IMG/VR virus record: IMGVR_UViG_3300050821_002847
Span: 115 to 64,114 of that record
Length of the DNA: 64,000 nucleotides
DNA from: a virus
Taxonomy: Duplodnaviria; Caudoviricetes
Strand: one strand, 5' to 3'
Within the stretch, counting starts at the first letter, position 1. The number at the start of each line of letters is the position of its first letter. The notes beneath the pieces are model-generated. The model worked only from the letters and a program-made list of their open reading frames with translations. It searched no databases and was not told the DNA's origin. The position numbers and the translations under genes were made by a program. This document shows positions 19,073-59,952 of this stretch, one piece after another.

Positions 19073-20231
19073 ATCATGCGGCGCGGCAACCACTCCCGTT
19101 CTATCCCTTGGCGAGATGCCCTTGGCCAACCATCTTCTCTCGCACCCAATGCACCCCTGTGCCCGCTACCCTCTGGACCTAGAGTTCTGCCCGGAGTGTA
19201 AACTAGGCCAACTCGCAGAGATAGTCCAGCCGCCGCTGATGTTCACTGACTACCCTTACTATTCCAGCGTATCCGCGCCGACGGTCACAGCCGCGAATGA
19301 CTTGGCCCTAGATGTATGCTCGCAACTCGGCACTGGCAAGCTCGACAAGGAATCTCTCGTCGTAGAAGTAGGCTCGAACGACGGCTACCTGCTCTCCGCC
19401 TACAAGAACTACGGCATTCCCGTGCTGGGTATCGACCCCGCTTCCGGCCCCGCGAACGCCGCTGCTCTCAAAGGCATCCCCACAGTGCAAGACTTCTTCG
19501 GCCTGAGCCTCGCCAAGCGCATGCCCAAGGCTGACGTGATCCACGCACACAACGTTCTCGCGCACGTCCCGGACCTTAACGATTTCGTGGCAGGGATCGC
19601 GGAGATGCTCAAGCCGGATGGGATGGTCGTCGTGGAGGCCCCCTATCTCGGCGACCTCGTGGACAAGTGTGCCTTCGACACGATCTACGCGGAACATGAT
19701 TACTATTTCTCGGTGACGGCGGCGATGCAGCTATTTCTACGTCATGGAATGCTGATGAACTCAGCGAAGAGAATCCCCGCGCATGGCGGCTCATTGCGCC
19801 TATGTTTCTCAAAGAAACTCGTAACCGGCATGACGTGGCCCAAGGAGTCCTTCGACTTCTCCGAGATGGCCGGTCGTATGAAGTCTATCGCCTGCGGCCT
19901 CCAGGACTTCCTCGTGTACGCTCACAGCCGTCACAAGCGCGTGTGGGGCTTTGGTGCCGCCGCGAAGGCAACCGTCATGCTGAACTACTGTGGCATCGAC
20001 ACCACGCTCATCGAATCCATCGCCGACGGCACTCCCGCAAAGATCGGCAAATATATCCCCGGCACGGGAATCCGCATCGCGCATCCGCAGGACTGGCTTG
20101 AGGCGCAGCCGGACTACACCTGTATCTTCGCGTGGAATTATGCCAATGAGATTTGCCATCGCTACGCCAAGGACTATCGCGGGATAATGTTTACACCATA
20201 TATTACCCCGAGCGTGGAGGTAAGCGCGTGA
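19062..20231 (+). CDS. NDP-sugar C-methyltransferase-like SAM methyltransferase
   Basis: Start ATG 19062; CRSC..CPEC Zn site, VEVGSNDG, HNVLAHVPD, HGGSLR, GAAAKA, FAWNY. Confidence 0.85.
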   Translation: MLCRSCGAATTPVLSLGEMPLANHLLSHPMHPCARYPLDLEFCPECKLGQLAEIVQPPLMFTDYPYYSSVSAPTVTAANDLALDVCSQLGTGKLDKESLVVEVGSNDGYLLSAYKNYGIPVLGIDPASGPANAAALKGIPTVQDFFGLSLAKRMPKADVIHAHNVLAHVPDLNDFVAGIAEMLKPDGMVVVEAPYLGDLVDKCAFDTIYAEHDYYFSVTAAMQLFLRHGMLMNSAKRIPAHGGSLRLCFSKKLVTGMTWPKESFDFSEMAGRMKSIACGLQDFLVYAHSRHKRVWGFGAAAKATVMLNYCGIDTTLIESIADGTPAKIGKYIPGTGIRIAHPQDWLEAQPDYTCIFAWNYANEICHRYAKDYRGIMFTPYITPSVEVSA

Positions 20232-21151
20232 ACGTCGGCGGTCCACTGGCTGGAGTCGTATTCGTCTCAACTGGCGGCTACAAAATGATGCGTGCGCTGC
20301 GCTCGTTCCGGCGTGCAGAACCTTCGTTGCGGGTGCATATCGCCCTCGCTACTTCTAGCCGCGTGTGGGACCAGAACAACGCTGCCGTACCATTCACTGA
20401 ATTTGAGAAGCAGCCGGGAGTCCTTACACGCCAGATCAGCAGCAACGGTTATATCAACGGGTGCTTCAACGAGGCCGTCAAGTGGATGCGTGAGTACGAC
20501 TATACGCACGTGTGCTGTCTACACGACGACACGGTGTTCTCGCCACTGCCCGACCCCGAACCATTGTCACAGTGGCTGGAATACGCGGCAGACTGCGTAG
20601 GCGTAGACAGTTCTGGCTGGACGCTTAGCTCTATGGAAGCTCTCGTTCATCCGCCCCCTGAGAACTCCGGCTATTGGCACCGCCCGCCCGAGTTCTGGGA
20701 CTCGCGCGATCTTGAATCCCCCGAAGTATGGCAGCGCATGTGCCCCGGCGGTCGCTCGGCGATGTACTTTGGCTCGGAAGGCTCAGCCGATGGCGTCTCG
20801 CTCGGCGACTGGTTCGTCAAATACTTCGCTACCGAGCACATCGCGACAATCTCGCGCCTCGGCCCTTGCGGATTCATTATCCCCGTCGCAACGTGGGAAG
20901 CCGTCGGAGGCTTCGGCGAGACCGAGGGCATCTTCTACGACATGGAGTACCCGGTCCTGTGCGCGCTGCGCGGACTCCCGCCCGTGAAGGTAATCCCCAA
21001 TACGCCGTTCCTCCATATTCATTGCCAGTCCACTATCGGCGACCCGGCGGTAGGCATCTGGGAGCACGACTTTGAGTCGTTCAAGTCAAAGTACGGCGGC
21101 AGAGATCCCGGAACAGTCCTGCGCGAATTGCCAAGCGGGGGAGGATATTGA
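20228..21151 (+). CDS. Glycosyltransferase family 2-like protein
   Basis: GTG 20228; CCLHDD (DxD-like), WEAVGGFGE...YDMEY. Confidence 0.65.
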   Translation: MNVGGPLAGVVFVSTGGYKMMRALRSFRRAEPSLRVHIALATSSRVWDQNNAAVPFTEFEKQPGVLTRQISSNGYINGCFNEAVKWMREYDYTHVCCLHDDTVFSPLPDPEPLSQWLEYAADCVGVDSSGWTLSSMEALVHPPPENSGYWHRPPEFWDSRDLESPEVWQRMCPGGRSAMYFGSEGSADGVSLGDWFVKYFATEHIATISRLGPCGFIIPVATWEAVGGFGETEGIFYDMEYPVLCALRGLPPVKVIPNTPFLHIHCQSTIGDPAVGIWEHDFESFKSKYGGRDPGTVLRELPSGGGY

Positions 21152-21756
21152 TGGCGTTCCCGGACGTGTCGGAGGTCCTGCGCGGCGATGCGCTGCTCGC
21201 GGAGGACTTGGTCTGGACGAAGCAGATCGGCGAGAAGGAGCGGCTTGCGGAGGACCTATGCAACGCTCCATTTCGCACCGTTTTAGAGATCGGCTGTGGG
21301 ACTGGCCTCTACGCAAGGATTCTACAGGACGCCTTCTCGATAGTCCCTATAGTTTACTTAGGCATAGACAGCAACCCGGAAGCGTTGGATATGGCTAAGG
21401 CTCGGAACCCTAGTACGCGATTCCTCCAGCGTGATTTTAGAGACTACGACTCGAAGATGACGTGGGACCTCGTCTGCGCTCACGCCTTCCTGAAGCACTT
21501 CAGCGCCGACGAATGGCCGCCACTGTTCGCTAAGTTCCTCTCCCTTGGACGCATCGCACAGTTCGACATGCAGACCGCTGCCGAGACTTTCAACAATGGC
21601 TCCCTGACCTTCGGCAACAACCTGTGGGTCGCGGAGTCGCTGTTCTCTGCATCGCTCGCCGAGGCAGGCCATGTAATCAAATCCTCGCGCATCGCATGGC
21701 AGCAGGACGACCGCAAGGCGACCATCTACTTGACGGAGAAGTGCGATGCTGCCTGA
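21151..21756 (+). CDS. Class I SAM-dependent methyltransferase
   Basis: VLEIGCGTG, YLGIDSN, WDLV. Confidence 0.85.
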   Translation: MAFPDVSEVLRGDALLAEDLVWTKQIGEKERLAEDLCNAPFRTVLEIGCGTGLYARILQDAFSIVPIVYLGIDSNPEALDMAKARNPSTRFLQRDFRDYDSKMTWDLVCAHAFLKHFSADEWPPLFAKFLSLGRIAQFDMQTAAETFNNGSLTFGNNLWVAESLFSASLAEAGHVIKSSRIAWQQDDRKATIYLTEKCDAA

Positions 21757-22288
21757 GTTCATGCAAGCACCCTGTGGTCAGCGCGAGCCCGAGTTTATGG
21801 CGTGGGCCGCGCTCGTGCGCGCCTACGACTGCCAGTCCTACGTCGAACTGGGCACTGGCCATGCGGACTACATAACCAAGCTAGGCGTCCCATCCGTGAT
21901 TGCCGTGGACATCAACAATGACGAAGGCCGTGTGAACCACAACGGCGTCCGCTACGTTCGCGGCGACTCCCACGACCCGCGCACCCTCGACCGCGTGCTG
22001 CATCTGCTCGGCGATCTCCCCGACGTCGTCTTCATCGACGCCGACCACGATGGCGACGCGCCGCGCCTTGACTTCGACCTCTGGTATCCGGTCGCGCAGA
22101 AGCTTGTCGGCTTCCACGACATTCTCATCCCGAATATCGAGCTTAATATCTGGCCGCAGATCGCGCTCGCGCACCCGTCGGCGAAGATCATCGCCTGCGA
22201 CCGGGCGTCCGCGCTCGCGTGGCAAGGCCCCGGCGCGCCGCAGGACGGCGTGCTCTCGGGCGGTGGGATTGGAGTCGTGTTTAAGTGA
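21746..22288 (+). CDS. SAM methyltransferase (Methyltransf_24-like)
   Basis: YVELGT, GDSHD, DVVFIDADH, VGFHDI. Confidence 0.8.
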   Translation: MLPEFMQAPCGQREPEFMAWAALVRAYDCQSYVELGTGHADYITKLGVPSVIAVDINNDEGRVNHNGVRYVRGDSHDPRTLDRVLHLLGDLPDVVFIDADHDGDAPRLDFDLWYPVAQKLVGFHDILIPNIELNIWPQIALAHPSAKIIACDRASALAWQGPGAPQDGVLSGGGIGVVFK

Positions 22289-22698
22289 GACTGACTGAGC
22301 TAGAGCCACGGTGTATTCGTTATGAAACTAGGGTAGAGAAGCGTACGTTCTGCTTAGGAGATGTGGCTACATGGAAGGACGGAGACCCGACTGAGGAGCG
22401 CGTTGTCCCGGTACGTTATGAGATTAGGGTGGACTCCTTCAGCGAGGCGCAAGGAATTGTGTTCTTATGTCCACTGTGCTTTGCTAAGAATAGCGGATCA
22501 GTAGGCACGCACTGGTGCTCTGTGTCATTTGCGGAGCGAGGTGTTAGTTCTGACGAAGGGACCCACAACTCTGAGGGTAGTCCTGTTCGTTGGAACGTCA
22601 GTGGAGATAGCTTCGACAATTTGTCTACGACTCCTTCGATACTGCTTCAGGGTGGCTGTAACTGGCATGGCTATATAACCAACGGCGAGGTCCAATGA
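22285..22698 (+). CDS. DUF6527-like Cys/His protein
   Basis: FLCPLC...H...W...NLSTTPSILL..GCNWHGYITNGE. Confidence 0.6.
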   Translation: MRLTELEPRCIRYETRVEKRTFCLGDVATWKDGDPTEERVVPVRYEIRVDSFSEAQGIVFLCPLCFAKNSGSVGTHWCSVSFAERGVSSDEGTHNSEGSPVRWNVSGDSFDNLSTTPSILLQGGCNWHGYITNGEVQ

Positions 22699-23243
22699 CG
22701 ACGACCATCCCCTACACCGACCTCTGCTCGCTCGCCGACAAGCACGGCACCGACAAGCGCCCCGAGCCGAAGGGCCACGGCTATACCCACTATTATCACT
22801 CGCTGTTCGGCGAGCGCCGCGACAAGGTGCGAAAGGTCCTAGAAATCGGCATCGACGTGGGCGCGTCGCTGCGGATGTGGGAGGAGTATTTCCCCAACGC
22901 TAAAATCTACGCGCTGGACGCCGACCCTGCGCGATTCATCAATAAAGGACGAGTCCGATCCTTCCAGTGCGATCAGGGGAATATAGAGTCTATCCGAGGA
23001 GTTAAATTTTGGCTAGATAGGAACTTCGACTTCATCATCGACGACGGCTCGCATGTCTCCGGGCATCAAGTTGCCTCTGCGTTAGAACTCGTGCCGCTAT
23101 TGGCTCCTGGTGGAATCTACGTTATCGAAGACGTTCCGCACCCAGCCGAAGTGACCTCGCAACTCCCTTTCCCCTGCGAGGTCCACGAGTTCGACATTCG
23201 CCGCGACCCCTACAGCCGACTGGTGGTCATCCATGGCCGCTAG
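22695..23243 (+). CDS. SAM O-methyltransferase (sugar O-MTase-like)
   Basis: HGTDK...HGY, VLEIGID.GASLRMW, FDFIIDDGSH, GGIYVIED. Confidence 0.85.
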   Translation: MTTTIPYTDLCSLADKHGTDKRPEPKGHGYTHYYHSLFGERRDKVRKVLEIGIDVGASLRMWEEYFPNAKIYALDADPARFINKGRVRSFQCDQGNIESIRGVKFWLDRNFDFIIDDGSHVSGHQVASALELVPLLAPGGIYVIEDVPHPAEVTSQLPFPCEVHEFDIRRDPYSRLVVIHGR

Positions 23244-23895
23244 TCCTGCCATCGTCCGTCCCATTGACACCGCGAGCGACGCCGCCGCCTCGATCAATCG
23301 CATCTATCGAACCCTCGCCTACGACCATCGGCCTTACCTTGACCCTCACGACGAAGCCTTCGCAGCCAAGAACACCGACGACTACAGGAGACGTTATGCC
23401 TGTTTCAAATACGCAGTTGCTAAAGTCCTACGCCCGCAAACCATCATCGAGATCGGCGTTGGCTCTGGCGTTTCGGCCCTCGCATTTCTACACGCTCGCC
23501 CTAATCTTCGCTATGTTGGCCTCGACATCGGCGAGTGGGACACGCGGCTCGGCAAGCCGTTCCTGCAAACCATGAGTGCGAAGCTCTCGGCGCTACGGTT
23601 CGATTACCAGATCATCGAAGGCGACAGCCAGCAGGTGAATAAACTGCCGGAGTGCGACCTCGTGCACATCGACGGCAACCATTCCTCCGAGGCCGTCTAC
23701 CACGATATGTTGTCCGCGTGGGCCAGCGGTGCGAAATGGATTCTCTGCGACGATGCCTGCGACCCGGCGGTGGGGGCGGGGATATTTCGTGCCTTACAAG
23801 TCGGCCTCGACCGAGGGAGCGTGGACTGGGCGTACTTCCCTGATACGTGGGCGGGAGATATTCTGATTCGCACGGACCATAGGAGAGAAGAGTGA
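23233..23895 (+). CDS. SAM methyltransferase (Methyltransf_24-like)
   Basis: IIEIGVGSGVS, GDSQ, DLVHIDGNH, ILCDD. Confidence 0.8.
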   Translation: MAASPAIVRPIDTASDAAASINRIYRTLAYDHRPYLDPHDEAFAAKNTDDYRRRYACFKYAVAKVLRPQTIIEIGVGSGVSALAFLHARPNLRYVGLDIGEWDTRLGKPFLQTMSAKLSALRFDYQIIEGDSQQVNKLPECDLVHIDGNHSSEAVYHDMLSAWASGAKWILCDDACDPAVGAGIFRALQVGLDRGSVDWAYFPDTWAGDILIRTDHRREE

Positions 23896-24881
23896 AATTC
23901 CTACTCCCACAAGGAATCGGCGATAGTGTCTGGGCGATTCACAAGGTGCAGTCTATCGCGGCTAAGCTAGGCGATGGACGCATCGACATTCTTCTATCTG
24001 GTGGGACACATCAGATCGAAACCCGTGCACTAGACTTCGTGCGCCGATTCTCCTTCGTAGACTCAGCAGAGATGCGCCCTTATTCAGTACATCCTAAAGT
24101 CCCCGTGTCTCCTGAGGGCCAATATAATTACATCCAGGATGGCATGTACGACTTCCCCGACAACACCGGCTGGCGCGTCGAGCGTTGCTGCGCGCTAATG
24201 CCTAACGGACCACTCGAACGTGGTATCCGCCTTGAAGATTGGCTACCGCAATATGAGATCAACTGGGACATCTGGAAGGACTTTCGCATCTCCTCCGAGG
24301 AGACTCGCTTCGCCATCGACCTCCACGCGGCCATTGGTGACTATGCCGTGTTCTATCTCGGCCCGCTCACTGGCAACACCATCGACGGCCACAATCGCGG
24401 CCCGCTATGGACTCCGCAGGACTGGCTAGCACTCGGACGCCACGTCCACCAGCACTGCGGCCTTAAAATCGTGGTCGTTGGTGCACCCTACGACGCTTCC
24501 TATTTCGACACGATGATCGGCCCGCAACTGAATGGCGACACGCCCTTCTGGATCAACCTAATTGGCAAGACCTCCATCGGCCAACTCTACGCCGTGACCT
24601 CCCGAGCGCGATTCGTGCTCTCCTATCAATCCGGCGTGGGCATCGTCTCGACCTATCTCGGCACACCCACAGGCATCTTCTGGCGTCCACGCGGCGACTC
24701 CATCAGCCCGTCGCGCTACCTGTCTTTCGAGGAGCGTATGGCCTCGGCGTGGGTGCCCCCGAGCGTCCTCCAGTCCGGGAGACATCTGCCGCTGATATAC
24801 GGTAGGCATGGACTAGCTTATATTAAGAAGGAGATCGACGCGCACGGGTGGAATAGAAAGAGAGCATGGGGCGACATATGA
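23892..24881 (+). CDS. Glycosyltransferase (GT-B, GT9-like)
   Basis: PQGIGDSVW start; INLIGKTSI.QL...ARFVLSYQSG. Confidence 0.7.
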   Translation: MKFLLPQGIGDSVWAIHKVQSIAAKLGDGRIDILLSGGTHQIETRALDFVRRFSFVDSAEMRPYSVHPKVPVSPEGQYNYIQDGMYDFPDNTGWRVERCCALMPNGPLERGIRLEDWLPQYEINWDIWKDFRISSEETRFAIDLHAAIGDYAVFYLGPLTGNTIDGHNRGPLWTPQDWLALGRHVHQHCGLKIVVVGAPYDASYFDTMIGPQLNGDTPFWINLIGKTSIGQLYAVTSRARFVLSYQSGVGIVSTYLGTPTGIFWRPRGDSISPSRYLSFEERMASAWVPPSVLQSGRHLPLIYGRHGLAYIKKEIDAHGWNRKRAWGDI

Positions 24882-48795: not shown

Positions 48796-49053
48796 ATGAT
48801 GGCAACTCTAATGCTAAATCCAATCGCCATGATGGTCGAGTTCATCGTGTTCTGCTGCTGCGTAGCCGTCGTGATAATTCTAGGACGCTGGCTGCTCAGC
48901 CTCACCGGACTTTCCATCCCGCAGCCGCTGCTGGTAGTCCTAGCGATCATCGCGTTCATAGTTCTGCTGATGATCTTCCTGAACTGGACCGGGATATACG
49001 ATATGAACTTCGGAGGCTTAGGGCATCCCGGACATTCGATTACGGTACGGTGA
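48796..49053 (+). CDS. Holin-like two-TM protein
   Basis: Two hydrophobic helices directly before endolysin. Confidence 0.55.
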   Translation: MMATLMLNPIAMMVEFIVFCCCVAVVIILGRWLLSLTGLSIPQPLLVVLAIIAFIVLLMIFLNWTGIYDMNFGGLGHPGHSITVR

Positions 49054-49511
49054 TGGCGCTCGATAACATCTCGGAGGCGAGACTGGCCGAGGTCCACCCG
49101 GCGCTGGCGGCGCGGATTAGAACGCTCGCGTCACAGTTGGACTTCCCGCTGCGCATCACTGCCGGGATTCGCACCGTGGCGCAGCAGGACGCTCTGTACG
49201 CGCAGGGGAGAACTGAGCCGGGGCCGGTGGTTACGAACGCGCAGGGGACCGAGAGTAACCATGTGCTCGGGCTCGCCTGTGACATCGTACCTATGGACCT
49301 GCCGGACGTGCATCCCGACTGGGACGCCTCGGACGCCTCGTGGAAGCGCATCGTGGCGCTCGCAGCATCGAACGGATTGCGCGACGGGGTGAGTTGGAAG
49401 GACGAGCCGCATCTGGAACTGGCGGAGGTACCGGAGGTGCCTACGGCGGAGATGCAACAGGTCTATATGGACGCGGGGACTGTAGGGGTCTGGGCGGAGA
49501 TTAACGTCTGA
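49050..49511 (+). CDS. Endolysin, M15-family peptidase (L-Ala-D-Glu type)
   Basis: RTVAQQDALYAQGRT, SNHVLGLACD, DEPHLE. Confidence 0.9.
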   Translation: MMALDNISEARLAEVHPALAARIRTLASQLDFPLRITAGIRTVAQQDALYAQGRTEPGPVVTNAQGTESNHVLGLACDIVPMDLPDVHPDWDASDASWKRIVALAASNGLRDGVSWKDEPHLELAEVPEVPTAEMQQVYMDAGTVGVWAEINV

Positions 49512-52447
49512 TTCGCCTCGGGTAGCTTGATCGGCTCCATCGCCCGCCAGTTTTTACCGTACGATCCCTCGACGCCTATCACAAGGCCCTCCGGCGCGAT
49601 CACTGGATGCTTCAGCACGGTCGATGGCGAGGTCAGCACCGGATAAATCTCACGCGCATGCTCTTCCAGCATCGACTCTGGGAAATGGAACATAAAACTA
49701 TCGTGAACTGTGTTGAACAGGCCATACTTCGAGTCCAGTCCCGCGCGGTGCAGAGCCTTCAGTTTCTCGCGGATATGGCCGAATGCAATGTTCGCTAGGC
49801 GATATGCGACCGCCTCCTCGGCTTGGTCCCCATGGCCCCAATCGCTGCGCTTGGCGTCCCACCGATAGACCTCGTAGAATCGCCGGATGAATCCGAAGGG
49901 CGTGCGAAGTTCGCGCTTCTCGTGGGCCTCCTTGCGCTGACGCTCCTGGAACTCGAACACTTTGGGGAATAGCTTCTCGGCAGTAGCGAGAACCTCTTCG
50001 GCGATCTGCCTGCCGGTCTGCTTGCCGGTCCCCTTGCACTTCAGGCAGCGCCGGGTGCGTCCGCTCGCAAGCGTCTTACCCACGCCGTCGCAGGCGACGC
50101 AGGCACGCGGAGGGAAGGACTCCATGTAGCGTTCGTACAGCCCCTTGGCCTTGAGGCCATTCCCGATTCCGAGTATGCCATGCTTCGCCTGATCGTCGCG
50201 GACGAGTTTCCGCGCAGGATCGCTCTTGAGCCATTTGAATCGCGCGAGGAGTTGCTCGTCGGATTCGGAGAACGCCTGGAAGCCGTCCCAGAGATTCAAG
50301 AAGTGGCCCGCGACGAAGGAGTGAATGTCCAGCCGCCCGAGGCGCATGTAGTTCAGGTCTTCGGCGAGGAATCCCAGCGTAATAACGTGGCAGGATTTGA
50401 AGTCCCATTCGGTCAGCACGCAGCCGTCGTCCGCCGCGACCATCTCACGCATCGAGTCCGCGAGTTCCCTCGTGGGCTTGAGCTTCGGAAAGTTCTGCTG
50501 GTTCGGATTGCGCGACGATAGCTGGCCGATAGCGGGTGCGAACGTGAAGGTGGTGTGTACTCGCCTGTCCGGCCCCGGCGCGAACCCATCCACGTAAGTC
50601 CCTCGCATCTTCGTATAGCCCTTATAGTCCCGGCATTTGAGATAGAACGAATCGTCGGTGCGGATCGCGAGGCGCTCCAGTTCCTTCGCCTCGGTCGAGT
50701 CCTTGGCGTTGCCTTCTTCGTCCACTTCGCGGGACTTCGGGCGCTTGTGGCGCTTGGCGCCCATGTAGGCGAGGATTTGCGGGGGCGAGTTGGGATTGAA
50801 GTCGTAGACGCGGCACCAGCGGAGCGTTTTATGGATTACGGGACCGCCAGTGGCCGCGTCCACAACGGGTACGTCGAAGTCGCGGAGTTCGTAGTGATAC
50901 GTCTCGTCATCGTTGAATAGCGTGTCAGTCAGCAGCTTATATCGGTGCGCCTCCCATTCCTCGAACGTGGTCTGCTCGACCTTAGAAGTCTCAGATAGCG
51001 GATGCTCGATGCCCCACTTCTTAACCTCCGGTGGCACGCCCTTGTATCCATCCTTGGGATGCACCCGGCAGCACTCCGCCGGGGCCAGCTTCGCGATCTC
51101 CGCGCCCAAGTCCGCCTGCGCGGCCTCGAAGCGCGCGCCGAGGCGCAGCCGCGCGGCGTCGTCGATGGGCATCCCGCGATCTTCCATTGCTGCTAAGACC
51201 GGACGGACCTCTGCCACCTGTCCCAGATAGCCAATCGTCTCGTCGCCCCATAGGCCATCTCTTTTAAGAGTTGCCCCCAATAAATTGTAGAGCCTGAGAG
51301 TAGCGTCGACGTCGCAGCAACCGTAGAACTCGATGTTAGCACTAGCCAGATGCTTCCAAGGAAAAGGGAACTGTACAAAGGAAGCACAGAACTGTAGATG
51401 AGCAGGCAAATCCGGCTGCCAATGATGAAACATCTGTAGCGTGTCATGGATCACCCCTCGCGGCTGGAGGTCGAGGCCCTCGCGCTCGCCTGCTGCGCGG
51501 AGGACTTTGTTGTCGAAGAGCCAGACGTTGTGGCCACATTTTAAGTTCGGTGAGTGGAGGATTTTCTGGACGACCTGCTTGAAGGGAGATTGGACGAAGT
51601 TAAGATCGTCGTCGAAAGAATCCCAAGGGAGCGCAATCGCGCCTCGGCCTTCGATTGCGAATTGAACAAGCTCGATATGAGTGCTAGTGAAGCCCTCTCG
51701 CGCGTCCTCGTCCATGGACTTCGATTCAGATGTCTCGATATCGTAAGATATCGGAAGGCCAGGGTTTGCAAGGCAATAGGCCAAGAAGGCTTCGGCCTCT
51801 TCGAGCGACGGGTGCGTGGCATATTTCAATCCTCCCCACGTAGTAGAATCCTCTGGGTCCACTCCCCACATCCACTCGCGGTCCTTTCCGGCGGCGATGT
51901 TCACCGCGCGCTGGAGGATGCGGGCGAACACGCCCTGGTGCGAGGCTTTGCCACGGCGCAGGAAGGCGGGGTGGAACACAGGCACCGTGGGGGTATCGTT
52001 AGGCCCTGGTAGGACGTAGCCTGCGAGGTGAGAGACCCCGAGGGCTTCCCCTGCCAGTCCTGTGAGTTCTCGGGTCGCCACTCCTCCTAGAGCCAGTATC
52101 GCGCGAGGCTTACGTTCCGCGATTACTTGGTCTAGATTGGGACGGCAGTGGCGCAGCGCGCTATATTCCCATGGAGCATTCTCAAGAAAATTTCCGCGTG
52201 GCCTGCAACGGATGCAATTCGTGACGCTGAGCATTTGCCGGTCGATGCCCATGCGCTTGAGAATTCGCTCGAAAACGGAACCTGAGGGTGCATATGGCCG
52301 TAGCGGCAACTCGTCGCGCTGCTCGTGCTCTCCACTGGCCTCTGCGACCGCAAGAAGGCCGCTGCTGCCGGTGCCCTCAACGCGTGAAAAGTCCTGGCCG
52401 TGGGCGTAGAGGGAACATCCGAGGCAGGATTCAGGTTTCTGTCGCAC
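49463..52447 (-). CDS. polA: Family A DNA polymerase with N-terminal family-4 UDG-like domain and 3'-5' exonuclease
   Basis: UDG CxxC, TNCIRCRP, HPA; Exo DIET, GHN..FD, YGCCD; Pol LSSRNPNQQN, WDFK, DIHS, AKH, VHDS. Confidence 0.9.
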   Translation of the reverse strand: MRQKPESCLGCSLYAHGQDFSRVEGTGSSGLLAVAEASGEHEQRDELPLRPYAPSGSVFERILKRMGIDRQMLSVTNCIRCRPRGNFLENAPWEYSALRHCRPNLDQVIAERKPRAILALGGVATRELTGLAGEALGVSHLAGYVLPGPNDTPTVPVFHPAFLRRGKASHQGVFARILQRAVNIAAGKDREWMWGVDPEDSTTWGGLKYATHPSLEEAEAFLAYCLANPGLPISYDIETSESKSMDEDAREGFTSTHIELVQFAIEGRGAIALPWDSFDDDLNFVQSPFKQVVQKILHSPNLKCGHNVWLFDNKVLRAAGEREGLDLQPRGVIHDTLQMFHHWQPDLPAHLQFCASFVQFPFPWKHLASANIEFYGCCDVDATLRLYNLLGATLKRDGLWGDETIGYLGQVAEVRPVLAAMEDRGMPIDDAARLRLGARFEAAQADLGAEIAKLAPAECCRVHPKDGYKGVPPEVKKWGIEHPLSETSKVEQTTFEEWEAHRYKLLTDTLFNDDETYHYELRDFDVPVVDAATGGPVIHKTLRWCRVYDFNPNSPPQILAYMGAKRHKRPKSREVDEEGNAKDSTEAKELERLAIRTDDSFYLKCRDYKGYTKMRGTYVDGFAPGPDRRVHTTFTFAPAIGQLSSRNPNQQNFPKLKPTRELADSMREMVAADDGCVLTEWDFKSCHVITLGFLAEDLNYMRLGRLDIHSFVAGHFLNLWDGFQAFSESDEQLLARFKWLKSDPARKLVRDDQAKHGILGIGNGLKAKGLYERYMESFPPRACVACDGVGKTLASGRTRRCLKCKGTGKQTGRQIAEEVLATAEKLFPKVFEFQERQRKEAHEKRELRTPFGFIRRFYEVYRWDAKRSDWGHGDQAEEAVAYRLANIAFGHIREKLKALHRAGLDSKYGLFNTVHDSFMFHFPESMLEEHAREIYPVLTSPSTVLKHPVIAPEGLVIGVEGSYGKNWRAMEPIKLPEANQTLISAQTPTVPASI

Positions 52448-52450
52448 ACG

Positions 52451-52735
52451 TCACGCAGCCTCTCGAATCGCCCGGGCACGCGCGAGGTCGTAAATCTCGC
52501 CGATGCGCTCCACGAGCGCCACGACAGAATGCCGGTCGAACGACTCTGGGGAGAATGTCTCTACTTCTACATCCACGCAAATCTCTCGCTTGGTCGATTC
52601 GCCTTCGTCGTCCAAGTCTTCAATGTCGGTGATGACTTCCTTCTCGACGGTCTCAGTCGGCAGATCGGCCAGCAGCCGTCGTATATCTTCGATCTCAAAC
52701 TCCAGTAGATTCAGCATCGTCGTCATCCTCCTCAT
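52451..52735 (-). CDS. Acidic hypothetical protein
   Basis: E/D-rich ORF in the replication operon. Confidence 0.6.
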   Translation of the reverse strand: MRRMTTMLNLLEFEIEDIRRLLADLPTETVEKEVITDIEDLDDEGESTKREICVDVEVETFSPESFDRHSVVALVERIGEIYDLARARAIREAA

Positions 52736-52952
52736 AGGCTTCCCTGTAGCGTCTCCGTGCCTCTGCTAGCCCCACCGCCACGCTGCCATACTGGCCGACC
52801 AGCAACTCCTCCACCCGCCGCTTGATTTCCGGGTCGGCGCGCATGTTTAGGGCCGCGCGGAGGCGCATGGACTCGGTTGTATAGCCCCAAGGCGTTTTTA
52901 TCTTTGGGGGGCGATTACGAATCTTGTCGATAAACTTGCGAATCAGAGCCAC
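52695..52952 (-). CDS. Hypothetical protein
   Basis: GTG 52952 after GGAGG. Confidence 0.55.
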   Translation of the reverse strand: MALIRKFIDKIRNRPPKIKTPWGYTTESMRLRAALNMRADPEIKRRVEELLVGQYGSVAVGLAEARRRYREAYEEDDDDAESTGV

Positions 52953-54274
52953 GGTTGCACCTCCGGCGCGACGGTACACTGCTTAATAAACCTGTCCTTG
53001 CTCCCCACGATACGAAGCCCTTCGAGAGTCCTCACGCGCGAAAATGCCACGTATACCATAGAGGGTTTGTTCATGGTCCAGTGGCGCACATCGACCTGGA
53101 TGCGGTCTAGAGTCAGCGATTGTGTCTTATGTACCGTGGACGCCGCCGCGAGCCTCATCGGATGCCACTCCACCTGTCCAAGCACATATTTCTTCGCCCG
53201 CCCGCGATAGTGCCTCTGGGGGATGTACCCGCCCTCGTCCTCGATGCGATGGATGGACTCACCCTGCCAGTCGTCAGGGCGGTCGGACTGGTCTACGTGG
53301 CGAACGATGCGGCGGAGTTCCACGTCGGCGTCGGTGCGCAGCAGGTGGACGGTGAACACGTCGTTGTCGAAGGAGACGATGTGGCCGGTGTCGCCGTTGA
53401 CCATTGTAAAATCTGGGGTGTTCGCGAGCAGCATGACCAGCGCGCCGATCTTGAACTCTTGCACGGGCGCGATGCCCCACTCGTGCGTCCGCTGGTTCTC
53501 CCCCCACTCGGGACGCTGCTGGCCCCAGCGGCGCGACAGGACGCGGAGGCGCGGTCCGGGAACGCGGTCGAGGGCCATTTCGTTGTAGCGGCGGACGTTT
53601 TCGTTCACTGGGAGGATCGTGGTGCCGTCGAACTCGGAGTCGAGTTGCGTGTGCCACGTTGCGCCCGCCGCCAAGAGGACTTCGCTCGCGGGTCCGCCTT
53701 GGCCTGCGCGGAGCAAGTTGAGGGCGTCTAGGAATGGCCCGCCGTCTTGGCGATAGACGTGTTCGAGACGCTCGGTGTGCTCGGCGAACCGAGGCCAGCA
53801 GTCGGCGTGGAACACCCAATCGCCGGACACTGGCGGGAGTTGCGCGAGATCGCCGACCAGCAGGATTCCCAGCGGATGTACTACGTCTAGGTTCCGGTTC
53901 GCTTCCTGCACCCCGCGATACCAGAGGTCCAACTGCGCGCCTTCAGCCATGGAATACTCTTCGATAATCAATCGACGATATCGGAGGGCCACGTCATGCA
54001 GAGTACGAGTGAGCCGTCCTGTAAGGTAAATATCGCGTAGGCTAGCGGTGTCATAATAGCGACACACGGAGTTTATCGTCACCGTGCCTAGATTCACGCT
54101 CGCAATTCCGGTTGTCGCGGTGAGCAGCCCATAGGTCGGGTCTTCTCGCGTGCGGGCCATCAGGGTGAAGGTTTTTCCCGTTCCTGCGCAACCGATGAGG
54201 CGCTGGCAGGGGACTTCACGGTCCTCGCGATACTCCTGTAGCGCCTCGCCGTCGAATTGGACTTCTCCGTACAT
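52943..54274 (-). CDS. Pif1/RecD-like SF1B helicase
   Basis: GCAGTGKT, IIEEYSM, GDLAQLPPV, RQ, TVHKTQSLTL, YVAFSR. Confidence 0.9.
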   Translation of the reverse strand: MYGEVQFDGEALQEYREDREVPCQRLIGCAGTGKTFTLMARTREDPTYGLLTATTGIASVNLGTVTINSVCRYYDTASLRDIYLTGRLTRTLHDVALRYRRLIIEEYSMAEGAQLDLWYRGVQEANRNLDVVHPLGILLVGDLAQLPPVSGDWVFHADCWPRFAEHTERLEHVYRQDGGPFLDALNLLRAGQGGPASEVLLAAGATWHTQLDSEFDGTTILPVNENVRRYNEMALDRVPGPRLRVLSRRWGQQRPEWGENQRTHEWGIAPVQEFKIGALVMLLANTPDFTMVNGDTGHIVSFDNDVFTVHLLRTDADVELRRIVRHVDQSDRPDDWQGESIHRIEDEGGYIPQRHYRGRAKKYVLGQVEWHPMRLAAASTVHKTQSLTLDRIQVDVRHWTMNKPSMVYVAFSRVRTLEGLRIVGSKDRFIKQCTVAPEVQPWL

Positions 54275-55981: not shown

Positions 55982-57010
55982 TCACTTGGCCACCACCGTC
56001 TTACTCCTGCCGAGCTTCTGATCCATGGCCTCACGCCACTTCCGCAGATTGTCCCCCGCCCCGGCGCTCAGCGCGTCCAGCACCCGCAGGTATTCCGCGA
56101 ACGAATCGGTCCCGTCCTCCTTGGGCTCGAAGTACCCTCCCGGGAAGCGCTTCTCCAGTTCCTTGATCTTCTCGGGAGTCACACGAGGCTTGGCCGGAAA
56201 CATGATGCCCGTCTGCGGGTCCGGGTGCTTCTTATAGAAATACCTTACAGTAATATCATGCACAACCTGCTCGCTCATCTTCTTGGGGTCCTGCGGGTCC
56301 GGGACCATCACCGTGCGCGGGGTGGAATAGTCCTGCGCGTGGATAAGGTCGCCGACCCATGCACCGCACTGCGACGTAGCTTTCTTGCCTGCAATGGCAG
56401 GACCATATATGGTGCTGCGGTCCTCGTCCTCGGTCTTGGACTCCAGTGCGTCGTGCAGCACATAATGAAATGGCAGTGAGTTAAAGTTGGTCACGAGCCC
56501 ATAGAGGTGATTCTGTACGAAGCCAAAGTCTCCGCGAGTGTTCGAGCGGAACGACAGCGACATCGGCTGGCGTCTGCCGTCGGCGTCGGTGACCGTGACC
56601 TCCTGGGTCCACCCGCCGAGCTTCGAGCGGTCCTCGCCGCCCACGGATATCCCCGACGCAGGCAGGTAGCGCATGATGACCTGCGAGATGGAGGTCCAGC
56701 CTTCGATGGCCATGCCGCCGACCTCGTTCCAGTTCATCGTGCGGAAGTCCACCACCCCGTTTTTGTTCTCTGGCCAGTAGCCCTTGGAGATAAGCTGGAG
56801 GATCGGCATGGGCACGGTCGCGGAGTCGCAGCGATAGGCACGGATGATCCCGGCGTCGATCTCCGGCTGACAGGGCTTCCAGCCGCCGCCGTCGCAGGAC
56901 AACAGGAGCGTCGATTTTCCGGTGACTTCGTAGATGTAGCGAGAGAGCCATTTGACTTGAGAGGTCTTCCAGGAGCCCGTTCCGCCGTAGATGCAGCCGC
57001 TATCCGCCAT
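55982..57010 (-). CDS. Sak4-like AAA ATPase (ssDNA annealing)
   Basis: IYGGTGSWKT P-loop, AIEGWTS, YGPAIAGK. Confidence 0.75.
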   Translation of the reverse strand: MADSGCIYGGTGSWKTSQVKWLSRYIYEVTGKSTLLLSCDGGGWKPCQPEIDAGIIRAYRCDSATVPMPILQLISKGYWPENKNGVVDFRTMNWNEVGGMAIEGWTSISQVIMRYLPASGISVGGEDRSKLGGWTQEVTVTDADGRRQPMSLSFRSNTRGDFGFVQNHLYGLVTNFNSLPFHYVLHDALESKTEDEDRSTIYGPAIAGKKATSQCGAWVGDLIHAQDYSTPRTVMVPDPQDPKKMSEQVVHDITVRYFYKKHPDPQTGIMFPAKPRVTPEKIKELEKRFPGGYFEPKEDGTDSFAEYLRVLDALSAGAGDNLRKWREAMDQKLGRSKTVVAK

Positions 57011-58320: not shown

Positions 58321-59952
58321 CTACGGATGATTTGGAGTCCTCTTTACAAACAGCCCACTCGCGAGCGGATCGCGGCGGATGTCTGCTCCGCCATAGCACA
58401 CGCCCACGAATTGACATTGCGACGGATAAATGCATGCGTGCCGATTCATGCTGAAATATCTATTTAGTAAACTCCGCCGCTCGCCTTCGTCCGCAGCAGC
58501 CTCGACCTCCGCAATGTGCTCGGCCACCTCGCGCTCCTGCCACTCAGTGGACTCCATCCAGTCGCGCAGGTCGTCATCATTGCGATACACGACCACCGGC
58601 GGGATGAACACAGCGTCGAGCGGATGCACGGCGGTGACCCCGAGCGCCTGGGCATCGCACTGGTATCCGAGCGCCCTCGGCTCCATGCCCACGGTAGAAT
58701 CCTCTCCAGACATCAAGGGCGCGGCGGAATCGAGCCGGTCGATCCACGCTTTGATCCCGCCGGGGCGCTCCCACACCGGGCGCGACTTCCAGTTCTGCCA
58801 CGCCAGGGACGACTCTCGCATGTCCTCGACGCGCGTGTAGTCCCACGACCAGCATACGTCGCCCACTGAGAACGCCTGCGAGCGCGCTGGGACCGAGACA
58901 GCTTCGTAGCAGCGGACGAGGTGAGATCGCTGCGAGCGGCAGTCCAGTTGCAGCCGCGCCGAGAGTTCCTTGTCCCGCCAGCGGTCGCCTTTGAGCATGT
59001 ATTCGTAGCGGATGGCGTGGATGCGCGGCGGGGCGGGCAGTGCTAATAGAAATTTAGCGATAGTCTCTGACGGACGCTGCTCAAACTCGCGGGATATTGT
59101 GAATGTAAATGGCTGCTTCTCTCGCTTGCACCATTGTAGATGCTCCCACCATTCGCCGAGCCGTCGCTCGATCTCCACCCCCTCACTCAAGCCCTGCATG
59201 TCGTGCTCGGCATCCCGCGCCTTGCGAATGTCCCACGACGCGGCGGTTTTGAACGACTGGAGGTAGAGTTGGTTTGAGGAGCGTTCGCGCAAGAGGGCGT
59301 CGGGGCGGGACATGAACCACAGTTGTGCACCTGTCTTGGTATTCCAGCCTCCAAATTCAGGACCAGAGCCGTTCGGCTGCATCCACTCGCTCAATAGCCA
59401 AGTCCCCTCGCGCTCGACCTCCAGCACCTCGAACTGCTCCAAGAGCGGGCGCAATCGCCGTCTACTGTATGCGCGTACCATCGCCTCCACAAGCGCACTC
59501 TGCTCCGCGACCAGATACGAATTGAACTGTTCCTGTGCGTGGCCGACCCTCTGTGCAAGCGAATCTATCCCCGCCTCCGCAGCGCTGAGCCCGAGCGACT
59601 CGGCGAGTTGCTCCGCCGTGGTCGCGCCCGCGATGGGCTGCATCTGCGACTGCTCGGTTGTGTCGAGTTCTAGGGCAGAGGAATGCTGAGAGAAGTCCGC
59701 GAGCGCGGCGGCGACGGCATTGTCCTCCAGTACATGTGACCAGTACAGCTTGCCAGAAGATTCGTCGTAGAGTCGTTGTCCCTCGCGCAGCAGTAACGCT
59801 AGGCCAACGTGAACGCTTCCTCCGACAGCCAAGGGCAAGGGCTTCGTGATTCCGTCGATGCCAGTGGAATCCTGATGGTAACGCAAGTACCGGAGGCGCT
59901 TACACCGGAGAGTGTCCTCCACACGCGAGCGATCAACGAACACTTTGCGCAT
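58321..59952 (-). CDS. PD-(D/E)xK exonuclease, Cas4/AddB-like with Fe-S cysteines
   Basis: CKR..Y, G.SVH, VEREG, RPDALL, QSFKT, C-terminal C..C.F..VC. Confidence 0.8.
   Translation of the reverse strand: MRKVFVDRSRVEDTLRCKRLRYLRYHQDSTGIDGITKPLPLAVGGSVHVGLALLLREGQRLYDESSGKLYWSHVLEDNAVAAALADFSQHSSALELDTTEQSQMQPIAGATTAEQLAESLGLSAAEAGIDSLAQRVGHAQEQFNSYLVAEQSALVEAMVRAYSRRRLRPLLEQFEVLEVEREGTWLLSEWMQPNGSGPEFGGWNTKTGAQLWFMSRPDALLRERSSNQLYLQSFKTAASWDIRKARDAEHDMQGLSEGVEIERRLGEWWEHLQWCKREKQPFTFTISREFEQRPSETIAKFLLALPAPPRIHAIRYEYMLKGDRWRDKELSARLQLDCRSQRSHLVRCYEAVSVPARSQAFSVGDVCWSWDYTRVEDMRESSLAWQNWKSRPVWERPGGIKAWIDRLDSAAPLMSGEDSTVGMEPRALGYQCDAQALGVTAVHPLDAVFIPPVVVYRNDDDLRDWMESTEWQEREVAEHIAEVEAAADEGERRSLLNRYFSMNRHACIYPSQCQFVGVCYGGADIRRDPLASGLFVKRTPNHP

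What the first reader, a model, noticed from the sequence alone, without database searches (positions are those of the whole stretch)
49690..50540. Family A polymerase with a coordinately rewired nucleotide-selection pocket
Seen, aligned by eye to E. coli Pol I: catalytic D705 (WDFK), D882 (VHDS), H734 (DIHS) and K758 are kept. But TGRLSS is IGQLSS (R668Q), DYSQIE is DFKSCH (steric gate E710H), KAINFGLIYG is KHGILGIGNG (F762L, Y766N), and AINAPMQG is AVAYRLAN (N845A, Q849A). Established: R668, E710, Y766, N845 and Q849 form the near-invariant network for rNTP exclusion and minor-groove checking. Inference: loss of all five in an intact 994-aa ORF looks like selection, not decay. Options are rNTP or modified-nucleotide use, primer synthesis (no primase seen), lesion bypass/low fidelity, or a non-replicative nucleotidyltransferase role.
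Basis: partly seen in the sequence, partly recalled or inferred. Interest (0 to 1): 0.85.

Follow-up and report, generated by a model that had tools for sequence, protein, structure and literature searches.

The report
Phage polymerase with rewired nucleotide pocket
The only DNA polymerase of this uncultured phage is a Pol I-type enzyme from a very large, unstudied group in which several normally fixed residues that check the sugar and the minor groove of DNA are replaced as one conserved set, with an effect nobody has measured.

Summary
ORF 49463-52447 (-), 994 aa, is a fusion of a family-4 UDG domain, a 3'-5' exonuclease and a family A polymerase. It is the only PolA in a 64-kb virus record rated 100% complete. 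HMMER and hhalign against Taq, Klenow and E. coli Pol I give R668->Q642, E710->H687, F762->L759, Y766->N763, N845->A881 and Q849->A885; the last two could be off by one residue. Both catalytic Asp, K758, H734, H881, an Arg at or near R754, and all five exonuclease residues are kept. This is not decay. Among 267 relatives, Q fills the R668 column in 255 of 261 and H the E710 column in 258 of 261; none has R or E. All seven comparators (E. coli, N4 and other phage PolAs) are canonical. Most likely it is an active, proofreading, dNTP-using replicase of a new UDG-PolA subfamily. A histidine sugar gate has a precedent in Pol III alpha. No gene for modified nucleotides and no primase domain was found here or in 23 related genomes, so the more exotic readings stay open but unsupported. 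I found no paper describing the clade. This scan has already flagged the same Q/H clade on at least eight other genomes.

The parts
49463..52447 (-). Whole gene: 994-aa fusion of UDG, 3'-5' exonuclease and family A polymerase (P0001)
   Evidence: ORF. Pfam PF03167 at 54.2 bits and PF00476 at 73 bits, both above cut-off. PHROG 17 DNA polymerase. AF2 model pLDDT 91, pTM 0.88. Foldseek top hits are Klenow, Bst and Taq, TM (target) 0.74-0.81.
51878..52447 (-). Family-4 UDG-like domain (residues 1-190). It has four Cys aligned to the Cys of T. maritima UDG, an AEASG motif (E36) and an HPA motif (H159).
   Evidence: phmmer against PDB family-4 UDGs, E 3.5e-10, with alignment. In relatives: C8 175/176, C11 177/177, C81 204/216, C101 216/218, E36 195/201, H159 222/227.
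51248..51835 (-). DEDDy 3'-5' exonuclease domain (residues about 205-400): D236, E238, D312, Y375, D379
   Evidence: Aligned to the Klenow exonuclease. D236 230/230, E238 230/230, D312 232/236, Y375 237/237, D379 237/237.
50798..51085 (-). Insertion of about 95 aa (residues 455-550) with a long beta-hairpin and no counterpart in E. coli Pol I
   Evidence: Gap in E. coli in hhalign. Strands 516-529 and 536-548; low pLDDT at 487-512.
50513..50530 (-). TGR-motif equivalent IGQLSS: Q642 replaces R668
   Evidence: Q in 255 of 261 relatives, R in 0.
50387..50404 (-). Motif A, DFKSCH: catalytic D682 kept; H687 replaces the sugar-gate E710; C686 replaces I709
   Evidence: D 259/262. H 258/261, E 0.
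50321..50329 (-). DIH: H709 = H734
   Evidence: H 258/260.
50156..50200 (-). Motif B / O-helix, RDDQAKHGILGIGNG: R750 (about R754), K755 (K758), L759 (F762), N763 (Y766)
   Evidence: Helix 744-762 in the model. K 257/259. L 226/260. At Y766: N 135, F 86, L 31, Y 5 of 260.
50024..50101 (-). Clade-specific zinc-finger insertion in the fingers, two CxxCxGxG units, DnaJ type
   Evidence: Weak Pfam PF00684 hit, E 0.035, below cut-off. Four Cys invariant in the near clade. Beta-hairpins 791-800 in the model. All four Cys present in 111 of 267 relatives, 109 of them with N763.
49778..49819 (-). Motif 6 equivalent, EEAVAYRLANIAFG: A881 at N845 and A885 at Q849, or Y882/N886 if shifted by one
   Evidence: Column 881: A 213, S 41 of 259. 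Column 885: A 167, S 36, Q 28 of 259. Column 886: N 213 of 259.
49697..49711 (-). Motif C, TVHDS: H915 and D916 = H881 and D882
   Evidence: H 255/259, D 259/259.
52943..54274 (-). Dda/Pif1-like SF1 helicase, a conserved neighbour
   Evidence: PHROG 325, E 2e-44. Pfam AAA_30 and PIF1. Homologue present in 20 of 28 related IMG/VR loci.
55982..57010 (-). Sak4-like ATPase, a conserved neighbour
   Evidence: PHROG 124, E 8e-7. Present in 20 of 28 related loci.
58321..59952 (-). 543-aa conserved neighbour with no family hit here.
Evidence: No PHROG or Pfam hit. Present in 13 of 28 related loci.

Best explanation
This is the phage's single replicative DNA polymerase. It is a three-domain enzyme (family-4 UDG-like domain, DEDDy proofreading exonuclease, Klenow-fold polymerase) and belongs to a very large, uncultured, so far undescribed subfamily of UDG-PolA fusions.

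Shown: the metal-binding Asp pair, the triphosphate-binding Lys, Arg and His, and the exonuclease site are all intact. The residues that normally touch the sugar of the incoming nucleotide and the minor groove of the terminal base pair are replaced by a fixed alternative set (Gln for R668, His for E710, Leu for F762, Asn/Phe/Leu for Y766, small residues at N845 and Q849).

Inferred:
- The enzyme still copies DNA from dNTPs.
- The imidazole of H687 acts as the steric block against a 2'-OH, as histidine is thought to do in Pol III alpha.
- Q642, possibly helped by N886, makes a shorter, uncharged minor-groove contact.
- The R->Q and E->H changes remove one positive and one negative charge together. 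This would explain why they are never seen apart.
- By analogy with SP15-like polymerases, the UDG domain scans the single-stranded template ahead of the active site.
For: - Fold and domains.
- Register of every motif.
- Catalytic and exonuclease residues are about 99-100% conserved in 267 relatives. The variant residues Q642 (255/261) and H687 (258/261) are equally fixed, and 250 of 267 carry Q and H together.
- This is the only PolA match in a record rated 100% complete.
- The replication neighbours (helicase, Sak4-like ATPase, 543-aa protein) are conserved in 20, 20 and 13 of 28 related loci.
- Inserts with intein-like boundaries (Cys start, HN|S or N|C end) sit exactly inside the GQLS|S motif and after the O-helix Lys in two relatives. 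Intein Pfam domains occur in others. From general knowledge, inteins favour functionally essential sites.
- His as steric gate in Pol III alpha: abstract and passages of PMC8485763.
- Leu at F762 occurs in PolA subfamilies shown to be active: passages of PMC10201439.
- UDG domain scanning the 5' template in SP15-like PolAs: abstract and passages of PMC13697223.
- No thymidylate synthase, ThyX, adenylosuccinate-synthetase (PurZ-type), TGT or dUTPase domain in six frames of the genome. Thymidylate synthase is absent from 0 of 23 hit, i.e. all 23 related records lack it.
Against: - There is no biochemistry for any member.
- From recalled literature, alanine substitutions at R668, E710 and Q849 in Klenow strongly lower activity and change fidelity, so normal behaviour cannot be assumed.
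- Most early and replication ORFs have no family hit. Novel nucleotide-modifying enzymes therefore cannot be excluded.
- No primase domain was found in this genome or in 23 relatives. How synthesis is primed is unexplained.
- The tools give no model coordinates, so I could not inspect the geometry of H687, Q642 and N886 around a nucleotide. The motif-6 register remains uncertain by one residue.
Confidence: 0.68

Rival explanations
1. The pocket was rewired to accept or tolerate a non-canonical substrate. Candidates are ribonucleotides, sugar-modified or minor-groove-modified nucleotides (for example 2-amino purines), or a modified template. In this reading the loss of the Arg/Gln/Asn minor-groove readers and of the Glu gate is adaptive.
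For: - All the changed positions are the ones that contact the sugar or the minor groove.
- Phe at the Y766 position, seen in 86 of 260 relatives, is described as a unique substitution of the two DpoZ clusters that replicate 2-aminoadenine DNA (passage of PMC10201439).
- Other UDG-PolA groups (SPO1-like, SP15-like) belong to phages with modified thymidine (PMC10201439; PMC13697223).
- The genome carries a glycosyltransferase/methyltransferase cassette and many ORFs with no family hit.
Against: - No TS, ThyX, PurZ-type, TGT or dUTPase domain in the genome. No TS in 23 relatives.
- The cassette is of the NDP-sugar type and lies in the virion module.
- The known T-modifications lie in the major groove, and SP15-like enzymes keep canonical pocket residues (passages).
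- The same paper judges the DpoZ Phe unlikely to decide A versus Z.
- His can itself be a steric gate.
- An intact DEDDy proofreader fits DNA synthesis.
Confidence: 0.16
2. The polymerase also makes its own primers, alone or with a small partner, which would explain the missing primase. The Zn finger at the fingertip would hold the template, as zinc domains do in true primases.
For: - No Prim-Pol, DnaG Zn-ribbon, Toprim_2 or DnaG-N domain in six frames of this complete genome.
- 0 of 23 related records (19 at least 90% complete) have Prim-Pol, Toprim_2 or the DnaG Zn-ribbon.
- A family A polymerase that primes with dNTPs exists: CCPol-MP (passages of PMC7581432).
- A Zn-finger insertion lies in the fingers.
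Against: - CCPol needs an SSB-like partner, lacks most of the exonuclease domain and keeps E710 and F762. None of this matches here.
- The Zn finger is present in only 111 of 267 relatives, while Q/H is family-wide.
- Pfam-negative ORFs may hide a novel primase.
Confidence: 0.07
3. The enzyme is a crippled, low-fidelity or non-replicative relic, and replication is done by host polymerases.
For: - Several residues considered essential for efficient, accurate synthesis are missing.
- No accessory processivity factor was identified.
Against: - The variant and catalytic residues are invariant across relatives down to 32% identity.
- The exonuclease is intact.
- There is one polymerase per complete genome.
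- The replication module is conserved.
- The structural model is confident.
Confidence: 0.05
4. Alignment artefact: the canonical R, E, Y, N and Q exist but lie elsewhere in the sequence.
For: The motif-6 register is uncertain by one residue. With the shift, N886 would sit at the Q849 position.
Against: - Three methods and three targets agree for R668, E710, F762 and Y766.
- The flanking invariant residues (D705, K758, H734, HD) anchor the register.
- No R or E is present at these columns in any of 261 relatives.
Confidence: 0.02

Closest known systems
N4-like UDG-PolA (cluster #17 of Czernecki et al. 2023, PMC10201439; phage N4 DNAP, EF056009)
   Same: - Same order of domains: N-terminal family-4 UDG, 3'-5' exonuclease, PolA.
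- Same local gene order: helicase, small ORF, polymerase.
- hhalign probability 99%.
   Different: - N4 keeps the canonical residues (GRLSS, DFASLE, Phe and Tyr in motif B).
- N4-like UDG domains have lost their catalytic residues (passage), whereas this family keeps the E36, H159 and Cys columns.
- The match to N4 (E 5.6e-18) is weaker than the match to E. coli Pol I (E 2.2e-33).
SP15-like and SPO1-like UDG-PolAs (Missoury et al. 2026, PMC13697223; YerA41 and phiLo DNAPs)
   Same: - UDG domain with conserved motifs fused to a proofreading PolA replicase.
- Extra insertions.
- A mechanism is on offer for the UDG domain: it scans the 5' template strand.
   Different: - Those enzymes use Phe at F762 and cite the E710 gate.
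- They are 1200-1300 aa with Insert 1, Insert 2 and a C-terminal domain.
- Their phages encode thymidine-modification genes, a PolX and a ligase. No thymidine-modification gene was found here; PolX and ligase were not searched for.
- I could not see their supplementary alignment.
Bacterial Pol I large fragments (Klenow, Bst, KlenTaq)
   Same: - Best structural and sequence matches for the exonuclease and polymerase domains.
- Same catalytic Asp, Lys and His residues.
   Different: - No UDG domain.
- Canonical R668, E710, F762, Y766, N845 and Q849.
- No insertion at 455-550 and no Zn finger.
Split UDG-exo / pol polymerase of an uncultured podovirus (MW202554, Manatee Spring)
   Same: - Closest deposited phage match for the UDG and exonuclease part (25-27% identity).
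- Its separate pol-domain protein matches the family profile at E 6.4e-24.
   Different: - Its pol domain keeps Arg (TLRLSS), the Glu gate (DKNQLE), Tyr/Tyr in motif B and P-x-Q in motif 6.
- The gene is split in two.
E. coli Pol III alpha (C family), steric gate H760
   Same: A histidine abutting the sugar of the incoming dNTP, proposed to exclude rNTPs (PMC8485763).
   Different: Unrelated fold and position. This is an analogy only, and the H760 assignment itself rests on modelling.
CCPol-MP primase of SCCmec elements (family A)
   Same: A family A polymerase in a mobile element that lacks a classical primase.
   Different: - CCPol lacks most of the exonuclease domain.
- It needs the MP partner.
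- It keeps E710 and F762.

Membership tests
Family A DNA polymerase (PF00476, Klenow fold) | Profile match above the curated cut-off | tested here: met
   PF00476 at 73 bits against a 34.3 cut-off. Six-frame search: 59 bits.
Family A DNA polymerase (PF00476, Klenow fold) | Klenow-like exonuclease plus thumb/palm/fingers fold | tested here: met
   AF2 pLDDT 91. Foldseek against Klenow, Bst and Taq: E about 1e-21 to 1e-23, TM (target) 0.74-0.81.
Family A DNA polymerase (PF00476, Klenow fold) | Motif A and motif C metal-binding aspartates; O-helix Lys; His of DIH and HD | tested here: met
   D682, D916, K755, H709 and H915 are aligned and 98-100% conserved.
Family A DNA polymerase (PF00476, Klenow fold) | Arg of the TGR motif (R668), reported as conserved in PolA clusters and related Klenow-fold polymerases (PMC10201439, Figure 3 legend) | tested here: not met
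   Q642. Q in 255 of 261 relatives, R in 0.
Family A DNA polymerase (PF00476, Klenow fold) | Glu steric gate (E710, position A2) | tested here: not met
   H687. H in 258 of 261, E in 0.
Family A DNA polymerase (PF00476, Klenow fold) | Aromatic residue at B3 (F762) and Tyr at B4 (Y766) | tested here: not met
   L759 and N763. Leu at B3 is a known variant.
Family A DNA polymerase (PF00476, Klenow fold) | Motif 6 Asn and Gln (N845, Q849) | tested here: not met
   A881 and A885. With a one-residue shift, Y882 and N886. Asn845 is absent in either register.
Family A DNA polymerase (PF00476, Klenow fold) | Template-directed dNTP polymerisation | not testable with these tools
   Needs an enzyme assay.
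DEDDy 3'-5' proofreading exonuclease | ExoI D-x-E, ExoII D, ExoIII Y-x3-D | tested here: met
   D236, E238, D312, Y375 and D379 are aligned to Klenow and 98-100% conserved.
Family-4 uracil-DNA glycosylase | Profile match above the cut-off | tested here: met
   PF03167 at 54.2 bits against a 24.3 cut-off. PDB family-4 UDGs at E about 1e-9 to 1e-10.
Family-4 uracil-DNA glycosylase | Four Cys that bind the 4Fe-4S cluster (their role is recalled, not tested) | tested here: met
   C8, C11, C81 and C101 align to Cys of T. maritima UDG. Conserved in 94-100% of relatives.
Family-4 uracil-DNA glycosylase | Motif A GE(A/G)PG and motif B HPS (motif wording recalled) | tested here: inconclusive
   AEASG: Glu kept, Gly->Ala and Pro->Ser. 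HPA: His and Pro kept. Activity not testable here.
N4-like UDG-PolA (cluster #17) | N-terminal family-4 UDG fused to exonuclease and PolA | tested here: met
N4-like UDG-PolA (cluster #17) | UDG catalytic residues lost or deleted; Phe at B3; canonical TGR and Glu gate | tested here: not met
   The UDG motif residues are retained. Leu at B3, Gln at TGR and His at the gate, whereas N4 has R, E, F and Y.
SP15-like UDG-PolA | Insert 1, Insert 2 and a C-terminal domain of about 80 aa; length about 1200-1300 aa | tested here: inconclusive
   994 aa. It has its own insertions at 455-550 and 783-808. The model ends about 20 residues after the last strand. No direct alignment to YerA41 or phiLo was made.
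SP15-like UDG-PolA | Phage encodes the 5hm-dUTP pathway (thymidylate-synthase homologue, dUTPase or deaminase) | tested here: not met
   0 hits for PF00303, PF02511 and PF00692 in the genome. PF00303 in 0 of 23 relatives.
CCPol-type family A primase | Exonuclease domain largely absent; obligate small ssDNA-binding partner | tested here: not met
   The exonuclease domain is complete. A partner was not searched for.

The most novel reading that the evidence does not exclude
A major natural lineage of Pol I-type replicases has given up the Arg/Gln/Asn minor-groove reading head and the Glu sugar gate. As a result it handles substrates that canonical family A enzymes reject: ribonucleotides, sugar-modified or minor-groove-modified nucleotides, or chain initiation without a primer. 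This would explain why whole phage genomes of the clade encode no recognisable primase.
Probability: 0.2. Interest if true: 0.85.

Novelty: new variant of a known kind. Interest (0 to 1): 0.6.

Why it matters
The Arg of the TGR motif and the Glu sugar gate are textbook fixed points of family A polymerases. They are also the main targets when Taq or Klenow are engineered to accept unnatural nucleotides.

Here nature has fixed an alternative set in a proofreading replicase, across hundreds of sequence clusters: 674 representatives at 50% identity match at E <= 1e-30.

- If the enzyme behaves normally, it shows a second workable solution for sugar and minor-groove checking in this fold.
- If it does not, it is a ready-made scaffold with altered substrate range, and a clue to unrecognised DNA chemistry or priming in abundant uncultured phages.

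Either outcome can be tested with one expressed protein and two reversion mutants.

Tried and rejected
- Decay or pseudogene: rejected. The ORF is intact and the variant residues are invariant.
- Misalignment: rejected for R668, E710, F762 and Y766. It is left open, by one residue, for N845 and Q849.
- Membership of the N4-like cluster: rejected.
- Search for a cultured representative. tblastn of P0001, P0226 and P0239 against 50,697 phage records gave 16, 22 and 29 records. None covered 80% of the query, and all places were under 60% identity, with listed rows at 21-34%. The four deposited phage polymerases I then opened (N4, VH2_2019, Serbin, RcZahn) are canonical. The same holds for the Manatee Spring and faecal-sample phage records and for E. 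coli.
- Known base-modification routes: no hits.
- Primase domains: no hits. Only these Pfam models were tried, so a novel primase is not excluded.
- ESM Atlas look-ups of two unknown early proteins gave only 'hypothetical protein' clusters or nothing.
- The glycosyltransferase/methyltransferase cassette looks sugar-directed, with no link to DNA shown.
- Literature. Searches found no description of a Gln/His PolA clade. The divPolA1 and divPolA2 variants of PMC11348598 (section 13 read) are different: they lack an active exonuclease and sit beside a regular polymerase.
- Not seen: figures and supplementary files of PMC10201439 and PMC13697223. Their logos and alignments might show Q/H among the 'unclassified UDG-PolAs'.
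- Model coordinates are not exposed by the tools, so I made no residue-level structural superposition.

Full report
**What is there.** The finding lies inside one intact ORF, 49463..52447 on the minus strand, 994 aa with a GTG start.
[quoted passage not shown] A sub-threshold DnaJ CxxCxGxG match covers residues 783-816.
- PHROGs calls it a DNA polymerase.
- The N-terminus aligns to solved family-4 UDGs, including all four cysteines of the T. maritima enzyme.
- An AlphaFold2 model built on 58 relatives is confident (mean pLDDT 91, pTM 0.88).
- Its best structural matches are Klenow, Bst and Taq large fragments (Foldseek E about 1e-21 to 1e-23, TM on the target 0.74-0.81).
- The window is essentially a whole virus record (64,114 bp, CheckV 100%), and this is its only PolA match.
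- The genome also has a terminase, a portal and a major head protein and an M15 endolysin.
- The replication module holds a Dda/Pif1-like helicase and a Sak4-like ATPase.

**Checking the observation.** Three alignments agree on the register.
- phmmer against KlenTaq aligns TATGRLSS with PAIGQLSS and LDYSQIE with WDFKSCH, and keeps DIH.
- A profile of 58 relatives against Klenow and hhalign against E. coli Pol I extend this. I took E. coli Pol I from the K-12 record and verified its numbering.
- Together they give K758=K755, F762->L759, Y766->N763, N845->A881, Q849->A885 and H881/D882=H915/D916.
- R754 most likely survives as R750 with a one-residue offset.
- Translating the stated coordinates reproduces every motif.

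The only soft spot is motif 6. The alignment there is ungapped, and a one-residue shift would put Y882 at N845 and N886 at Q849. The same register appears when the family is aligned to its nearest canonical relative. And 28 of 259 relatives have Gln at column 885. Either way Asn845 is gone.

**Is it more than chance or decay?** Yes.
- The word-index search returned 317 relatives, with the best 120 listed at 55-81% identity. Most are UDG+PolA proteins of about 950-1050 aa on contigs of about 55-66 kb.
- The exhaustive search found 674 representatives of 50%-identity clusters at E <= 1e-30, with the best 150 listed, down to 32% identity over the full length.
- In a 58-sequence alignment spanning 32-75% identity, the invariant polymerase columns are Q642, D682, H687, H709, K755, F857, H915 and D916.

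| E. coli position | Residue counts in relatives |
|---|---|
| R668 | Q 255 of 261, R 0 |
| E710 | H 258 of 261, E 0 |
| D705 | D 259 of 262 |
| D882 | D 259 of 259 |
| K758 | K 257 of 259 |
| F762 | L 226 of 260 |
| Y766 | N 135, F 86, L 31, Y 5 of 260 |
| Exonuclease residues | 98-100% conserved |

- Q and H occur together in 250 of 267 rows. The rest are mostly gaps, and four rows have S with H.
- Within the family there is further covariation. Position 686 (I709) is Cys with N763 in 112 rows and Phe with F763 in 66. The Zn finger goes with N763 in 109 of 111 rows.
- Two relatives carry inserts with intein-like boundaries exactly inside GQLS|S and after the O-helix Lys. From general knowledge, inteins favour functionally critical sites.

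**Comparators.** All seven polymerases I aligned to the family profile keep Arg and Glu (N4, the Manatee pol domain). They are E. coli Pol I, phage N4 DNAP, the pol domain of the Manatee Spring podovirus, a faecal-sample phage PolA, Vibrio phage VH2_2019, Serratia phage Serbin and Rhodobacter phage RcZahn.

No deposited phage genome holds a close relative. tblastn of P0001, P0226 and P0239 against 50,697 records gave 16, 22 and 29 records. None covered 80% of the query, and listed identities were 21-34%.

**What it most likely does.** The intact two-Asp site, the triphosphate ligands, the complete DEDDy proofreader, the single-copy status in complete genomes and a conserved replication neighbourhood all point to the phage's replicative DNA polymerase. 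In the neighbourhood, the helicase and the Sak4-like ATPase each appear in 20 of 28 related loci, and the 543-aa protein in 13 of 28.

My reading of the pocket is inference.
- The imidazole of H687 replaces the Glu carboxylate as the block against a 2'-OH.
- Histidine in that role has a precedent in the unrelated Pol III alpha (H760; abstract and passages of PMC8485763).
- Q642 gives a shorter, uncharged minor-groove contact.
- R->Q and E->H remove opposite charges together, which would make each single change costly and the pair stable.
- The UDG domain keeps its Glu, His and Cys columns. By analogy with SP15-like polymerases, it may scan the 5' template strand for uracil (PMC13697223, abstract and passages).

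**The more exotic readings.**
- I looked for support for modified DNA. No thymidylate synthase, ThyX, adenylosuccinate-synthetase (PurZ-type), TGT or dUTPase domain is present in six frames. Thymidylate synthase is in 0 of 23 related virus records. The glycosyltransferase/methyltransferase cassette at 17.8-24.9 kb is of the NDP-sugar type and sits among virion genes.
- The absence of a primase is real at this sensitivity and holds across the clade. Four primase Pfam models give 0 hits in this genome. Three of them give 0 hits in 23 related records, 19 of which are at least 90% complete.
- A family A polymerase that primes does exist: CCPol-MP. It lacks most of the exonuclease domain, needs a partner and keeps E710 and F762 (PMC7581432 passages; PMC10201439). 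It is a weak model for this enzyme.
- Many ORFs have no family hit, so novel modification or priming genes cannot be excluded.

**Relation to what is known.** UDG-PolA fusions are known in three groups.
- N4-like (cluster #17, inactive UDG) and the SPO1 group (PMC10201439, passages).
- SP15-like: YerA41 and phiLo, with an active UDG and T-hypermodified genomes (PMC13697223, section 15 and passages).

[quoted passage not shown] The family here breaks those generalisations while sharing the domain architecture.

It is not a member of the N4-like cluster. The UDG motifs are kept, the pocket differs, and its profile match to N4 (E 5.6e-18) is weaker than to E. coli Pol I (E 2.2e-33). Seven literature searches found no description of a Gln/His PolA clade. 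I could not see the figures or supplements of the two key papers.

**Host hint.** Fragments of the gene lie on MAG contigs labelled Terracidiphilus (Acidobacteriota) and Solirubrobacterales. A truncated 203-aa exonuclease-domain remnant sits beside a large ORF that I read, by eye only, as a transposase, on a 2.5-Mb contig labelled as an uncultured Acidobacteriota bacterium.

**Earlier notes of this scan.** Look-ups made after my own reading was formed show that the scan has flagged the same kind of His-gate/Gln polymerase on at least eight other genomes, with similar verdicts. Those notes are not independent evidence. Their claim that the swap arose several times was not tested here.

**Verdict.** The inference of selection rather than decay is supported, and the functional options are unproven. 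This is a new, very large variant subfamily of a known kind of enzyme, most probably a working proofreading replicase with an alternative pocket. It is of real interest to polymerase enzymologists and cheap to test.

Noticed in passing
window 50024-50101 (-), residues 783-808: A DnaJ-type zinc finger (two CxxCxGxG units) is inserted at the tip of the fingers after the O-helix. All four Cys are present in 111 of 267 relatives, and the insertion covaries with C686 and N763.
   Followed up: partly
window 50798-51085 (-), residues 455-550: An insertion of about 95 aa with a long beta-hairpin, absent from E. coli Pol I. Part of it has low model confidence. It may be a DNA-gripping or partner-binding arm.
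   Followed up: no
whole window and 23 related IMG/VR records: No Prim-Pol, Toprim_2 or DnaG Zn-ribbon domain in any of 23 related phage records. Twelve of these records have direct terminal repeats. The whole clade lacks a recognisable primase.
   Followed up: partly
window 52695-54274 (-): The gene order helicase, small ORF, UDG-PolA mirrors phage N4 (DNA helicase, gp38, DNAP), although the polymerases are only distantly related.
   Followed up: no
L035:9965-13216 (+): A 31%-identity relative keeps GQLSS and DMKSAH. Its polymerase frame is interrupted by in-frame TAA, TGA and TAA stops that bracket a 175-aa ORF, which suggests an inserted element rather than a changed genetic code.
   Followed up: partly
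homologues: Several relatives carry intein domains (PF14890, PF07591). Two inserts with intein-like boundaries split the GQLS|S motif and the O-helix after the Lys.
   Followed up: no
L003:10004-10615 (+): A truncated 203-aa copy of the exonuclease domain lies on a 2.5-Mb contig labelled as an uncultured Acidobacteriota bacterium. Beside it are a large ORF that I read by eye as a transposase and a ParB-like/methyltransferase ORF. This hints at the host range.
   Followed up: partly
window 17801-24881 (+): A cassette of two GT9-like glycosyltransferases, an NDP-sugar-type C-methyltransferase and several SAM methyltransferases lies inside the virion module. Its target (virion protein, host surface or DNA) is unknown.
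   Followed up: partly
window 49463-49511: The 3' end of the polymerase gene overlaps, convergently and by 49 nt, the end of the M15-peptidase (endolysin-like) ORF 49050-49511 on the plus strand.
   Followed up: no
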